A program made the position numbers and the translations under genes. Source: Podospora anserina (lineage: Eukaryota). Taken from it: 64,000 nucleotides of DNA. Location of the stretch: NCBI GenBank assembly GCA_017654855.1, contig CM030332.1:3100001-3164000 (forward strand). The letters run 5' to 3'. Each line of letters starts with the position of its first letter. Position 1 is the first letter of the stretch. This document shows positions 21,522 to 25,314 of the stretch, one piece after another. The notes under the pieces are model-generated. The model had not been told where the DNA came from. It worked only from the letters and a program-made list of their open reading frames with translations, and did not search any database.

Positions 21522-22395
21522 CAGAACCCTCAATTTGTGTTTCAATAATACCAACCACGTGCGCCAGGCCCAGTCTGTTGCTCTTCTTGACGGTGCGGTG
21601 CGGTATTATAGCAAGTGGTGGAGAAAGAGGGCCAGGTAGCGAAGAAGGGATGGCGAGCGGAAATTCTTCAAGGACAGGTTTACCCTATGGTGACTTTTTT
21701 ATCACTTGAAAAAGTCCCGGCGTGGTGCTTCGAGAACAAGCTTGTCTGGTCAGACTGGAAAGGAAAACACCACGGACATATTCTCACCTCGAGGGCGGGA
21801 GAGCGTTGTTGGTTTCATAACCAGAGTAGCGATAGGTCAGCGTTTGCGGGTATATATGGATTATTACAACCAGCTATCATCTCATTTTGAAACTCACCTC
21901 GCGGTTTTTCTTGTCAAACATAGACTTGTCGACCTAGCAGTTGTGTATGGTATGACCTCGATGTCGTTGCTGAATGAGAAAAGTGATATACCTCTGATGA
22001 TGACCCAAGGTAAGGTAGCTTAACTACCTACATCCACCCACCAAAGCCAGGAAAAGGTAACCATAATAACAGCAACATTAAACTCTTTTATTAAGTATCC
22101 CCTGAATCTAACTAATCCCCTGAACCCGGATGGAGCTACCGAGGAGATCAGGAGACACAGCAACACACAAACCTCGTCACTAAATTGGTTGACGTACGGC
22201 CTTATTCAAGACAGCACAGCACAGCACAGCATCATCACCCCCCACCCCCTTCATTTATGCCAACCACCACCTCACAAATCACCACAGTATCACATTTCAT
22301 CAAATGACCATCATCACATCACTCCCCAACCAGTAGTAATAATCACCAGCAGAATCAAACTTTGGTTCCCTGAATTATAAAAACCTTTGCTACCA

Positions 22396-22592
22396 ACACA
22401 CACACACACACAACACACCCAAAAAAAAAGACACCGAATCCCAAACACAACAAAGAGGGGAAAAAAAAAAAAAAAAAAACGAAACCCGCCAGAACACAAA
22501 AAACTCCATCCCGCGCCACGCCACGCCATAAAAAAGGCTGTCCCTATAAAAGATATACGGAGAAAGACAACACCAAACAACACAGACAACAG

Positions 22593-22625
<33 letters not shown>

Positions 22626-22745
22626 ACAGACTCAAAAAGGAAACTCCATTTTTCTTTCTTCCCCCCCTCTCCCCCCCCAATCTCGCTCGCTGACACAAAG
22701 TAGCCTAACAATATTCTCAAACCAAACCAAACCAAACCAAATAAA
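22396..22745. repeat. Low-complexity block: (CA)n, poly-A (2 tracts), (CAA)n, (CCAAA)n
   Basis: Directly visible simple repeats between convergent genes. Confidence 0.8.
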
Positions 22746-22760
22746 ATATCATGCTCATGC

Positions 22761-23729
22761 TCAATCAATACCCCTACCCCCCCACTTCGACCTCCTCTCC
22801 AACCCCCTCTTCCTAATCCTCCTCGCCCTCCCCCTAAAATCCCAATCCCAACCACCACCACCCACAAACCTCTCCCTCTGCATCCCCGCCCACCGCTCCA
22901 TCTCCCCCCTCCTTTCCAGAGCCTCCTCTTGTCGCTGTAAAGGCCCCACAAAAAATTCCTCGTACTCCTCTTGCTTGTCAAAAAAGTCCACCATCTGTTC
23001 CTGTTGCTGTTTAACAAGTCTCTGCATTTCTTCCATCTTCTGCTGGAGTGATTCTTCCAACTCTGCCCCGTCACCACCGTGATCACAAGTGCCCTCCTGG
23101 TCATCAGACTCCAGATGGCCTCCTCGCAGTCTCAAGCCCTTTAAGTCATTCACCCACGGCCAAAATTCCTAGTAGTTTGATAATGCCGGCATGTGGTCTG
23201 GTGGTAAAGGAGAAGGCCGTAACAATGTCATGTATTCCTCCCTCTCAATGTCGGACGAACTGAATTGCGGTTTAACTGATGCTGAAGAGGTTGCCTCAGT
23301 TCTACAAGCCCGACCTTGTTCCGCCCCATCCTCGGGCTTGATTTCAACGCTAGCCTGGACAATGTCATGTTTCTCATATTCCAAGGGCGGACTTCTGGCT
23401 CGGCGCGTGGGAGCTGAGACGTGCCGGTTGCTTTCGTTTATAACAGGTGATGCCCATGCTGAAGGGGTTCGGGAAAGTTCAAGGGGGGAGAAGGATACTC
23501 CATTGATGCGCTCTTCTGACGCGGGTCCAGGGTGGGCATCGAGCCCAAGTTGGATTCTGATGAGTTCTTCGTCAGAATTCTCTATGGCCGAGGGCAGAGA
23601 TGGCTCCAGCGACTCACTCTTCGGCTTGATAGGCGGTGTCTCGGACTTTGGCTCCAGAGGCTTGTCCGCTCTTGCCGCAGAGTCCCGGGAGCGTATGACC
23701 CTCTGCGGCAGACAAGCACGGACAGCCTT
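22761..23729 (-). CDS. Putative stop-codon-gated C-terminal extension of the BAH-PHD protein (186 codons, TAG 23169-23171, 135 codons, TGA 22761-22763)
   Basis: The frame stays open after the TAG at 23730-23732 (hand-checked codon by codon to 23385, ORF track beyond). The second part has a coiled-coil-like E/Q segment and a basic tail. Confidence 0.6.
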
Positions 23730-25314
23730 CTAGTTAACCGTTGTTGCACAGAGGAGGCACTTGACGGGCTCAGTCCACGTCTTTTCGCCACCAACGATGC
23801 CCTCCCGCAGGTCTCTGAACTCCAGCACTGGGGGCCCGTTCTTTTCTGTGTTGAGAGTGACTTCAAAGAGCCCCTCCCATGGCCGTGAGGTCTCTCCGTT
23901 TGCCTCCCCCTTCTTTTTCGGCTTCCCACCCTTCCGACCCGACGCTGATTTGAGAACCAGCTTGGTGCTGGGGGTGCCTGTGCCGGCGGCTGCGCTCGCT
24001 GAACGACGGCCTGAGGAGGGTGCAGCATCCTCGGGAGCAGTAGGACCATCTTCCTCCTCTGTTTGCTTAACGTCCACGTTGCCACTCCCATTCTGTGCTG
24101 GCTCTGCTTCGGCCTTGACGTCGATCGAATGTTGGGCAGAAACGGCGGCGCCGGTATCGGATGGGCTTAGCGGACGCTGGCCTTCGATTTCGCTCTCGGC
24201 CTTCTTGATAGGCTCAGGGGGCAGGTGTGGCTTGTCGGCACCGAGTCGCTTGTATGTCGACTGGAGAGCGTCTTCAATGATACACTCTTCGTGCATCCAC
24301 TTCTTGCACGCCTCCACTGTGCATCCGAGTAGTTTCCTGTCGGGGTTCGCTGGGGTATTGCATAGGCAAACCAAATCAACAGACTGCAAACAAACAATGG
24401 TTAGATGACGCGCTCAAACGTGAGGGGAAATGCTGAGATCAGTACATACCGAGAGTTCGTAGCTCCTGACGTCAAAAGCTTGTCGCCAGTAAAGCGCGTG
24501 TTGAATCTCCTCGTCGTTCTCCTCAAACCACTGCCTGACCGTCGCCTGAGACGTTACACTGACCACATTGATAATATCCACTGAAGAAAAAAGTCACTGT
24601 TAGCAAATCGAAGCTAGACATGCACCGGAACAGCCATATGTGCTTACTGTGATTCGACGCGACCAACTCATTCATTCCATGGTATGGCTGCCTCCCTTGA
24701 ACAAACTTCTTCCCGTCAAGAGTGCCTGCAGGAAGCTCGTCTGGCCAGTACATCCAGTAAATACGAGCGTAAACATGGTGCTCGTCGCTCGCGCGGATCT
24801 CGAGAATTCGCGCCACCCAGTCGTCATCTGACTTCTTCCTGATTTGCATCGGCTTGTTGTCATTGGCAGCCTTTTGCCGTTCGATACTGGAATCATTGGC
24901 GACATAGATGAAGCCCTCGCTAAAGTACTTCACCCCATTGACTTTGTGCCGGAGGTGCAACGTTAGCCCACACCGCTCGTCTGAAATGTTATGCATCAGA
25001 TGTTATGAAAGGAGAGCAATGCACTTACGAACAAAACTGTTGTACCTGGTCATGTCGGTCCACTTCTTCGGAGGGCTGACCTTGAAGTACAAGTCCATCG
25101 TCTCATGTTTCTTGAACTTGCCGCAGGGCGCGAAGGGCGACATCTGGAGGTTGACCTTGGCCGTGGCATCCTCATCCTCACCCTCGGTCTTGCGCTTCTT
25201 TGACTTTCTCTTGCTATCCTTGTCATCTGGGTTGACGACGTCGATCTTGAATGGGCACTCGGCCCGGTTATCCTCGGGCTCCTGTCTTGGCCTCTTGCGA
25301 GCGGAGGAAGCCAT
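23730..25314 (-). CDS. BAH-PHD chromatin reader, EPR-1/BP1 (plant EBS/SHL-like H3K27me reader) type; 454 aa; introns 24942-25028, 24581-24647, 24384-24449
   Basis: BAH motifs WVARILEIRASDEHHVYARIYWMYWPDEL and ELVASNHMDII. PHD ligands CLCNTPANPD...CTVEACKKWMHEEC, with the last CLLC pair split off to the C-terminus. All splice sites are canonical and in frame. Confidence 0.88.

What the first reader, a model, noticed from the sequence alone, without database searches (positions are those of the whole stretch)
22761..23732. Polycomb-mark reader (EPR-1/BP1-type BAH-PHD) hides a 323-aa extension behind two successive UAG codons
Seen: after the normal stop (GTT AAC TAG AAG, 23730-23732, minus strand) the same frame stays open for 186 codons to a second TAG (AAC TAC TAG GAA, 23169-23171), then for 135 more codons to TGA at 22761. 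The extension reads like protein: a P/S/E-rich linker, a coiled-coil-like ELEESLQQKMEEMQRLVKQQQEQM...QRQEEALERRGEMERW, and a basic RGRARRIRKR tail. Established: Sordariomycetes (Fusarium graminearum, Neurospora crassa, Sordaria macrospora) carry out ADAR-independent A-to-I mRNA editing in fruiting bodies, favouring a U just 5' of the edited A and turning UAG into UIG (Trp); EPR-1/BP1 read H3K27 methylation. Inference: editing acts as a two-step switch giving 454-, 641- and 777-aa isoforms, so the H3K27me reader gains a new interaction module only during sexual development. I do not know of this isoform being described.
Basis: partly seen in the sequence, partly recalled or inferred. Interest (0 to 1): 0.88.

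Follow-up and report, generated by a model that had tools for sequence, protein, structure and literature searches.

The report
Candidate edited stop in Polycomb reader
The Podospora gene for a Polycomb-mark reader ends in a UAG stop that is unusually conserved and sits in an RNA hairpin loop, so it may be a target of the known fungal stop-codon editing, but the 323-residue tail behind it looks like fast-evolving 3' untranslated sequence, not a hidden protein module.

Summary
In Podospora anserina Pa_1_8740 (EPR-1/BP1-type BAH-PHD, 454 aa), TAG at 23730-23732 is followed in frame by 186 codons, a second TAG at 23169-23171, 135 codons and TGA at 22761. Dinucleotide shuffles almost never give this (1 stop seen, 11.7 expected, 0 of 2000).

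The two-step 454/641/777-aa switch is not supported:
- RNA contigs of three studies show a 61-nt GT..AG intron (23557-23617) inside the "extension". When it is spliced out, read-through ends after 77 residues at a TAA.
- The tail has no homologue outside P. anserina-like contigs.
- In a related genome it carries frameshifting indels and then becomes unalignable.
- The RNA contigs showed no A-to-G at either TAG, but contigs drop rare variants, so this settles nothing.

Among 43 distinct orthologous loci the stop is TAG in 35, although neighbouring synonymous sites are saturated. In 27 of those 35 the TAG adenosine lies in a predicted hairpin loop, against 31-35% in controls. These are the published hallmarks of fungal stop-loss A-to-I editing.

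Best reading: a candidate conserved stop-loss editing site with a disordered, lineage-specific tail. This is a new member of a known kind, and editing itself is unproven.

Novelty: the claim needs tempering. Stop-loss editing is a described class, with 403 genes in F. graminearum (PMC13123824, section 15).

The parts
23733..25314 (-). CDS of the EPR-1/BP1-type BAH-PHD protein (Pa_1_8740), 454 aa. Exons 25314-25029, 24941-24648, 24580-24450, 24383-23733.
   Evidence: Splice joints 24941/25029, 24580/24648 and 24383/24450 appear in RNA contigs of three runs. The product equals P0072. Pfam BAH scores 23.3 bits, below the cut-off of 30.8. PDB matches to plant EBS and SHL have E=8e-9 and 1e-6. 59 orthologues were found.
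23730..23732 (-). Canonical stop codon TAG; candidate stop-loss A-to-I editing site (A at 23731).
   Evidence: TAG in 35 of 43 distinct orthologous loci, while neighbouring synonymous pairs are near parity (TGT 23/TGC 18, AAC 17/AAT 14, CAA 17/CAG 11).
23722..23741 (-). Predicted local hairpin: 6-bp stem including G-U pairs, 8-nt loop holding the UAG.
   Evidence: 41-nt fold, -7.8 kcal/mol, z=0.02, so no more stable than shuffles. The loop position recurs across orthologues: 27 of 35 against 31-35% in controls.
23618..23729 (-). First 37 codons after the stop, plus the first base of codon 38. All three frames are open here.
23557..23617 (-). 61-nt intron in the 3' region (GTGAGT ... CTGAC ... 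CAG), alternatively spliced or retained.
   Evidence: The joint 23556/23618 has GT..AG ends on the minus strand in X15, X16 and X19, and a 121-nt unitig (23527-23647) keeps the intron in the same three runs. The spliced form is also seen as Logan ORF P0061. Sequence.
23172..23556 (-). Main body of the 186-codon open frame, in frame with the CDS only if the intron is retained.
   Evidence: 0 stops against 4.0 expected (P=0.011). Weak 3-periodicity (p=0.07, like the 5'UTR control at 0.076). Codon-usage margin 0.07, below the 5th percentile (0.17) of coding windows. Predicted disordered.
23438..23440 (-). TAA that ends read-through in the spliced mRNA (Trp + 76 residues, 531 aa in total).
23169..23171 (-). 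Second in-frame TAG.
   Evidence: It lies in a predicted hairpin loop, but that holds for about a third of all TAGs.
22761..23168 (-). 135-codon open frame plus TGA. An E/Q-rich helical part is followed by a G-rich low-complexity tail.
   Evidence: 0 stops against 5.6 expected (P=0.002). Strong GAG-like periodicity up to 22914 (p=3.5e-7). Helices at tail residues 221-251 and 253-289. Called as a 126-130-aa ORF on P. anserina-like DNA contigs: P0078 identical, P0077 1 change, P0079 3 changes and 4 residues shorter.

Best explanation
The window is Podospora anserina, and the gene is its EPR-1/BP1-type H3K27-methyl reader. Its conserved UAG stop is displayed in a hairpin loop. It is therefore most likely a substrate of the sexual-stage, TAD2/TAD3-dependent A-to-I editing known in Sordariomycetes (stop-loss editing, UAG read as UGG/Trp).

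If the site is edited, ribosomes run into the 3' region and add a fast-evolving, largely disordered, lineage-specific tail. The tail is 77 residues (531 aa in total) on mRNAs that have spliced the 61-nt 3' intron, and 187 residues (641 aa) on mRNAs that retain it.

Shown:
- the gene model, the 3' intron and both of its splice forms;
- conservation of TAG and the recurrence of the hairpin loop;
- lack of conservation of the tail.

Inferred:
- that editing happens in P. anserina;
- that the tail is translated;
- what the tail does.

The second TAG and the 777-aa form are possible only on intron-retaining, doubly edited mRNAs. Nothing here supports them.
For: 1. TAG is the stop in 34 of 42 distinct metagenome loci plus P. 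anserina (35 of 43). Synonymous transition pairs in the preceding codons are near parity. TAG is seen in 32 of the 35 loci whose nearest named relative is in Sordariales. The two Fusarium-like and two Xylariales-like loci carry TGA or TAA.
2. The TAG adenosine lies in a predicted hairpin loop in 27 of 35 TAG loci at +/-30 nt. Controls: 168 of 544 other TAGs in the same loci (31%) and 246 of 700 flank shuffles (35%). At +/-20 and +/-25 nt it is 26 of 35. Median loop size is 6-7 nt. After clustering at 80% identity it is 16.8 of 23 clusters (P about 4e-4).
3. The stems use different sequences and registers in different clades, so the loop position has been kept while the stem sequence changed.
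4. The same three hallmarks accompany verified stop-loss editing of DBF2: TAG bias 94% against below 37%, hairpin loop 82% against below 34%, and a disordered, poorly conserved extension. 403 F. graminearum genes carry such sites (PMC13123824, sections 13 and 15).
5. The first ~210 tail residues are predicted disordered.
6. RNA contigs that are spliced in the CDS continue past the stop to about 22900-22946, so the tail region is in the mRNA.
Against: - No A-to-G was seen at 23731 or 23170 in the contigs of three RNA runs. Contigs drop rare variants and the developmental stage is unknown, so this is not decisive.
- Editing has not been shown in P. anserina in anything I read. The bioRxiv preprint 2024.12.09.627484 only lists ADAT genes.
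- The P. anserina hairpin itself is no more stable than shuffles (z about 0).
- RNAalifold finds no common structure.
- At +/-40 nt the loop signal is weak (13 of 33 against 23%).
- Read-through length in relatives is not systematically longer than each locus's own null (median tail fraction 0.40, KS p=0.5, 26 loci).
- Two loci have a second stop directly after TAG, so there an edit would add one residue only.
- In the one neighbouring gene that could serve as a control (Atg22-like), the stop was also mostly unchanged: TGA in 4 of 6 distinct loci. Stop codons may simply turn over slowly in this sample.
Confidence: 0.5

Rival explanations
1. An ordinary long 3' UTR. The open frame is a by-product of composition and triplet-like low complexity. 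The 3'UTR intron marks the mRNA for post-transcriptional control, for example EJC-dependent NMD of the spliced form. The conserved TAG hairpin serves termination or mRNA regulation rather than editing.
For: - The tail is not conserved.
- A relative shows frameshifting indels (9 of the 12 listed are not multiples of 3) and unalignable stretches.
- Substitutions fall 13/12/15 over codon positions 1/2/3.
- The 23172-23556 body has UTR-like periodicity and codon usage.
- The intron's 5' splice site lies 112 nt after the stop.
- No edited letters appear in the RNA contigs.
Against: - 1 stop against 11.7 expected over 966 nt, with 0 of 2000 shuffles as low.
- The stop distribution of 1/6/22 over the three frames mirrors that of the real CDS exon (0/1/7).
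- It offers no reason why TAG, rather than any stop, is kept, or why its A sits in the loop.
Confidence: 0.3
2. One reading: two successive edits give 454-, 641- and 777-aa isoforms, and the last adds a functional coiled-coil and basic interaction module.
For: - Frame openness is beyond chance.
- The helical segment is predicted with pLDDT 82-94.
- The 135-codon ORF is intact in three near-identical haplotypes.
- The second TAG lies in a predicted hairpin loop.
Against: - It needs intron retention plus two edits on one molecule.
- The module has no homologue anywhere.
- It is unalignable in the related genome.
- P. anserina-like haplotypes differ by 1-3 amino acids in 126-130 residues (2 in 34 for P0062). 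The 454-aa CDS differs by only 2-3 among named sibling species.
- The helical part is E/Q-rich GAG-like repeat sequence, and the tail is G-rich low complexity.
- A hairpin loop is the state of about a third of all TAGs.
Confidence: 0.07
3. An independent small ORF (about 91-130 aa, E/Q-rich, helical) lies in 22761-23168. It would be translated from its own transcript or by re-initiation, and would be unrelated to the reader's C-terminus.
For: - Coding-like codon score (margin 0.36, comparable to CDS exon 4 at 0.34).
- Strong periodicity.
- Gene callers report it on DNA contigs.
- It contains internal ATG codons.
Against: - No homologue beyond P. anserina-like contigs.
- No separate transcript start is visible (table 6: none).
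- One diverged haplotype yields only a 34-aa call (P0062).
- The composition resembles triplet low complexity.
Confidence: 0.07
4. Programmed translational read-through of UAG, helped by the hairpin, without RNA editing.
For: The stop codon and a neighbouring structure are conserved. PMC13123824 discusses read-through as a widespread alternative (abstract).
Against: - The structure puts the stop inside the loop rather than downstream of it.
- The TAG-specific bias within an order where UAG editing is known fits editing better.
- Read-through tails are not conserved in length.
Confidence: 0.05

Closest known systems
Stop-loss A-to-I editing of FgDBF2 and about 400 other F. graminearum genes (PMC13123824; abstract and sections 13 and 15 read)
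   Same: A canonical UAG kept across the clade, its A in a hairpin loop, and a poorly conserved, disordered C-terminal tail read from the 3' UTR.
   Different: Editing is not demonstrated here. The Fusarium-like loci of this gene end in TGA or TAA, so any site would be a Sordariales trait. The P. anserina tail is unusually long and is split by an alternatively spliced intron. Relatives' tails are not systematically long.
Premature-stop-correction editing, e.g. the tandem UAG UAG in PUK1 (PMC4817773, abstract in the search listing only; review PMC11156358, passages)
   Same: Two UAG codons in one reading frame that editing could turn into Trp.
   Different: In PUK1 the stops interrupt a conserved kinase domain. 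Here nothing downstream of either TAG is conserved.
EPR-1 (N. crassa NCU07505) and BP1 (F. graminearum FGSG_11913), BAH-PHD readers of H3K27 methylation (10.1101/868117 and PMC8501951, passages)
   Same: BAH domain plus split PHD finger, with the last CxxC four to five residues before the stop. 54-57% identity to the Neurospora and Fusarium proteins in alignment A1.
   Different: No long or edited isoform is mentioned in the passages I searched. Binding of H3K27me was not tested here.
3'UTR-intron mRNAs controlled by EJC-dependent NMD in Neurospora
   Same: A spliced intron more than 50 nt downstream of the stop codon.
   Different: NMD sensitivity is untested. Here intron retention also changes what a read-through ribosome would make.

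Membership tests
EPR-1/BP1 BAH-PHD readers | BAH domain | tested here: met
   Pfam BAH E=6e-5, 23.3 bits, below the curated 30.8. PDB matches to the BAH-PHD proteins EBS (E=8e-9) and SHL (E=1e-6). 44 of 59 orthologues carry PF01426.
EPR-1/BP1 BAH-PHD readers | Split PHD finger whose last CxxC lies at the extreme C-terminus | tested here: met
   Pfam PHD only E=0.011, 16.2 bits, below the cut-off of 24. C243, C245, C258, C263, H268, C271, C446 and C449 are invariant in 13 orthologues. "PHD finger (split)" appears in the figure legend of 10.1101/868117.
EPR-1/BP1 BAH-PHD readers | Orthology to NCU07505 / FGSG_11913 | tested here: inconclusive
   N. crassa and Fusarium proteins of the same architecture align at 54-57%, but no call ties those database entries to the locus names.
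EPR-1/BP1 BAH-PHD readers | Binds H3K27me2/3 and mediates silencing | not testable with these tools
   Needs biochemistry or genetics.
Fungal stop-loss A-to-I editing sites | Canonical stop is UAG (U at -1 of the edited A) | tested here: met
   TAG in 35 of 43 distinct loci.
Fungal stop-loss A-to-I editing sites | Edited A lies in a hairpin loop | tested here: met
   Predicted for P. anserina and for 27 of 35 TAG loci against 31-35% in controls. This is prediction only, and the P. anserina hairpin has z about 0.
Fungal stop-loss A-to-I editing sites | A-to-G in sexual-stage RNA, absent from DNA and vegetative RNA | tested here: inconclusive
   Contigs of three RNA runs show the genomic letter at both TAGs. 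Contigs drop minor variants and the stage is unknown.
Fungal stop-loss A-to-I editing sites | In-frame, mostly disordered extension that is translated | tested here: inconclusive
   77 or 187 in-frame codons. pLDDT is below 50 for tail residues 1-210. Translation is not testable.
Premature-stop-correction (PUK1-type) editing, for the second TAG | UAG interrupts an ORF whose downstream part is conserved | tested here: not met
   No homologue of the downstream part.
EJC/NMD-targeted 3'UTR-intron mRNAs | Spliced intron more than about 50 nt after the stop | tested here: met
   The 5' splice site is 112 nt after TAG. The joint is seen in three runs.
EJC/NMD-targeted 3'UTR-intron mRNAs | mRNA level rises in NMD or EJC mutants | not testable with these tools
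   Needs mutants.

The most novel reading that the evidence does not exclude
In Sordariales the Polycomb-mark reader EPR-1 is switched during fruiting-body development by editing of a hairpin-displayed UAG. The edited protein carries a destabilising or function-altering tail, which loosens H3K27me-based silencing in sexual tissue. In P. anserina, regulated retention of the 61-nt 3' intron additionally chooses between a 77- and a 187-residue tail (and, with a second edit, 323 residues), so that RNA editing and intron retention would act combinatorially on a chromatin reader.
Probability: 0.15. Interest if true: 0.7.

Novelty: new member of a known kind. Interest (0 to 1): 0.4.

Why it matters
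That would link two much-studied fungal systems, Polycomb-type silencing and A-to-I mRNA editing. It would also give a simple genetic handle (uneditable and pre-edited alleles) on how silencing is relaxed during development.

If it is not edited, the case is a useful caution. A 323-codon open frame behind a stop codon can arise in a fast-evolving 3' UTR and need not be a hidden protein.

Tried and rejected
- **RNA runs.** No RNA holder was listed by the run search. X15, X16 and X19 were only guessed to be RNA, and I treat them as RNA because their contigs carry the three CDS splice joints.
- **Editing letters.** None was seen in those contigs at 23731 or 23170. Contigs drop rare variants, so this settles nothing.
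- **Does the transcript reach 22761?** This stays open. RNA contigs stop at 22909 (X15, followed by adapter letters), 22899 (X16) and 22946 (X19). There is no cover in 22642-22869, of which 22583-22754 was skipped as repeat. Cover resumes at 22491-22582 and 22300-22385. No DNA run of the same organism was laid, so the gap proves nothing.
- **Unitig word-depths.** For the spliced against the retained form they were 25.6/53.1, 7/9.6 and 45.5/52.4. I use them only to say that both forms exist.
- **An in-frame 63-nt intron across the stop (23765-23703).** I considered it, but it has no joint in any run.
- **RNAalifold on 36 stop regions.** It gave no consensus structure, because the stems differ in register. 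I did not pursue pair counting.
- **Rfam.** One sub-threshold hit, in the CDS.
- **Tandem repeat finder.** Repeats lie only below 22825 and in the 5' UTR.
- **Read-through length in relatives.**
  - Frame 0 has median 35.5 codons against 20 and 22.5 in the other frames (n=34).
  - Those other frames are biased by the conserved hairpin arm.
  - Against each locus's own null there is no shift.
- **Neighbour-gene control for stop-codon turnover.** Only 6 distinct loci were available, which is too few.
- **Earlier notes of this scan.** Nothing found.
- **Literature.**
  - NCU07505 + editing returned only the EPR-1 preprint, where "editing" refers to manuscript editing.
  - A-to-I + H3K27me3 + stop-loss returned one unrelated review.
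  - The FGSG_11913 search was swamped by a generic third term and is uninformative.
  - Supplementary tables of editing sites (Du 2026 Dataset S1; Liu 2017) could not be seen and may already list this gene's orthologue.
Full report
**What is there.** The window is Podospora anserina. The 2008 model PODANS_1_8740 (P0069) and the later model (P0071) match the window's translation exactly apart from their start or first-intron choices.

On the minus strand the gene has four exons: 25314-25029, 24941-24648, 24580-24450 and 24383-23733. All three introns are confirmed by splice joints in contigs of three runs from three studies (X15, X16, X19). The 454-aa product equals P0072, an ORF called on 15 Logan contigs.

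The protein is a BAH-PHD protein:
- Pfam BAH scores 23.3 bits, below the cut-off of 30.8. PHD is sub-threshold.
- The PDB search finds the plant BAH-PHD readers EBS and SHL (E=8e-9 and 1e-6).
- 59 orthologues of 372-584 aa were found, 44 of them carrying PF01426.
- In an alignment of 13 orthologues, all end four to five residues after an invariant CxxC. This is the second half of the split PHD finger described for N. crassa EPR-1 (10.1101/868117, figure legend passage).

**The observation.** TAG at 23730-23732 is followed by 186 codons, TAG at 23169-23171, 135 codons and TGA at 22761-22763.

This is not what the local composition gives. With dinucleotide-preserving shuffles the whole 966 nt should carry 11.7 in-frame stops and carries 1. 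None of 2000 shuffles was that low. The other two frames carry 6 and 22 stops.

- Logan ORF P0061 and the laid contigs show a 61-nt GT..AG intron at 23557-23617, with a CTGAC branch site.
- In all three RNA runs both the spliced joint and an intron-retaining unitig are present.
- Because 61 is not a multiple of three, the 186-codon frame exists only on intron-retaining mRNA. On spliced mRNA a ribosome passing the first TAG stops after Trp + 76 residues, at TAA 23440-23438, giving 531 aa.
- So at best the isoforms are 454, 531 and 641 aa. The 777-aa form needs intron retention plus two edits.

**Is the tail a protein?** The evidence says mostly no.
- *Homology.* The tail has no homologue among proteins of 302-963 aa. 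HMMER against 1.84 billion representatives finds only P0061 and a 34-aa fragment, P0062. The search among shorter proteins adds only P0077-P0079, which are 126-130-aa ORF calls on P. anserina-like DNA contigs.
- *Related loci.* None of the 71 related metagenome loci matches the tail by tblastn or blastn.
- *A related genome (X21, "organism B").*
  - Its contig aligns across the gene and on to 23373.
  - Over 23405-23635 the mismatch density is 17%, against 12% for the rest of the aligned piece.
  - The 12 listed gaps all lie in 23470-23530, and 9 of them are not multiples of three.
  - 23137-23372 and 22524-23112 are replaced by unalignable sequence of similar length.
  - The 40 listed substitutions fall 13/12/15 on codon positions 1/2/3.
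- *Body of the 186-codon frame (23172-23556).* Its periodicity (p=0.07) is like the 5' UTR control (p=0.076). Its codon-usage margin (0.07) is below the 5th percentile of coding windows (0.17).
- *The 135-codon part.* It looks more coding-like (margin 0.36; periodicity p=3.5e-7), but its pattern is GAG-like and E/Q-rich, and it ends in a G-rich tract where two of the three frames have no stop.
- *Structure.* AlphaFold2 without an alignment gives disorder for residues 1-210 and two confident helices at 221-289. Such helices are common for sequence of this composition.
- *Rate of change.* P. anserina-like haplotypes differ by 1-3 residues in 126-130 (2 in 34 for P0062). The 454-aa CDS differs by only 2-3 residues among named sibling species. 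This is a weak hint of faster evolution, because the origin of those contigs is unknown.

**What is conserved: the stop itself.**
- *Stop codon.* Of the 71 loci, 49 gave a C-terminal match with a stop. These reduce to 42 distinct loci: TAG 34, TAA 5, TGA 3. With P. anserina, TAG is 35 of 43.
- *Neighbouring synonymous sites.* In the preceding codons the synonymous pairs are close to parity: TGT 23/TGC 18, AAC 17/AAT 14, CAA 17/CAG 11.
- *Taxonomy.* By nearest named relative, 32 of 35 Sordariales-like loci have TAG. The two Fusarium-like and two Xylariales-like loci have TGA or TAA.
- *Background rate.* Among 41 stop-to-stop ORFs of 200 or more codons in the window, TAG is 12.
- *Hairpin loop.* Folding +/-30 nt places the TAG adenosine in a hairpin loop in 27 of 35 TAG loci.
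  - Controls: 31% of 544 other TAGs in the same loci, and 35% of 700 flank shuffles.
  - Other window sizes: 26 of 35 at +/-20 and at +/-25 nt, but only 13 of 33 (against 23%) at +/-40 nt.
  - After clustering at 80% identity it is 16.8 of 23 clusters.
- *Stems.* They are built from different sequences and registers in different clades. This is why RNAalifold finds no common structure.
- *P. anserina itself.* Its own hairpin is unremarkable in stability (z about 0).

**Comparison with what is known.** Fungal A-to-I editing prefers U at -1 and hairpin loops, and it often hits UAG. "Stop-loss" edits occur in hundreds of genes (PMC11156358, passages).

For FgDBF2 the published signature of a conserved stop-loss site has three parts:
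- TAG bias, 94% against below 37%;
- a hairpin-loop context, 82% against below 34%;
- a disordered extension that is poorly conserved.

In that case the tail acts as a destabilising element. 403 F. graminearum genes have such sites (PMC13123824, abstract and sections 13 and 15).

The EPR-1 stop in Sordariales shows the first two signs and P. anserina shows the third, so I file it as a candidate new member of that class.

Points against a conserved role for the tail:
- Read-through lengths in 26 TAG loci do not exceed each locus's own null (median tail fraction 0.40, KS p=0.5; 6 of 26 fall in the top tenth).
- Two loci carry a second stop immediately after TAG.

**What is not shown.**
- Editing in P. 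anserina. The preprint 2024.12.09.627484 only reports ADAT genes.
- Editing at this site in any species.
- Translation of the tail.
- Whether the mRNA reaches 22761.

I found no paper linking EPR-1 or BP1 with editing. The searches were NCU07505 + editing, A-to-I + H3K27me3 + stop-loss, and term searches within the two BP1 papers and the EPR-1 preprint. The supplementary editing tables were closed and may list the gene.

**Verdict.** The main rival is an ordinary, fast-evolving, intron-containing 3' UTR (about 0.3). This is a new member of a known kind, of moderate interest.

Noticed in passing
window 24942-25028 (intron 1): The deposited P. anserina models P0069 (601 aa, partial) and P0071 (467 aa) read 13 extra residues because they use a different acceptor for intron 1. 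RNA contigs of three runs support the 87-nt intron and the 454-aa product, as annotated in sibling species.
   Followed up: partly
window 22755-22915, minus strand: An extremely G-rich tract with many G-runs (third codon positions 74% G, 0% A or C), just before a (GTT)n array at 22567-22624. It has quadruplex-like composition.
   Followed up: no
L004, L008, L019, L025, L027, L038, L052, L034, L063, L003, L057; about 10-30 nt after the stop: A shared 3' UTR motif of about 19 nt (GAATCTGGAAGAATGAAGG, near-identical across the 11 loci) follows the stop hairpin in these loci. It may be a conserved UTR element or may simply reflect close kinship.
   Followed up: no
L020, L036, L003 (stop region): Tandem or compound stops: TAG TGA (L020), TAG TAG (L036), and TAA followed by CTAG through a 4-nt insertion (L003).
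   Followed up: no
window 23176-23733, plus strand: A 185-codon antisense open frame is coextensive with the 186-codon frame. One plus-strand frame has 1 stop against 10 and 11 in the others. It is probably the mirror of the same weak periodicity. No evidence of use.
   Followed up: partly
   Followed up: partly
   Followed up: no
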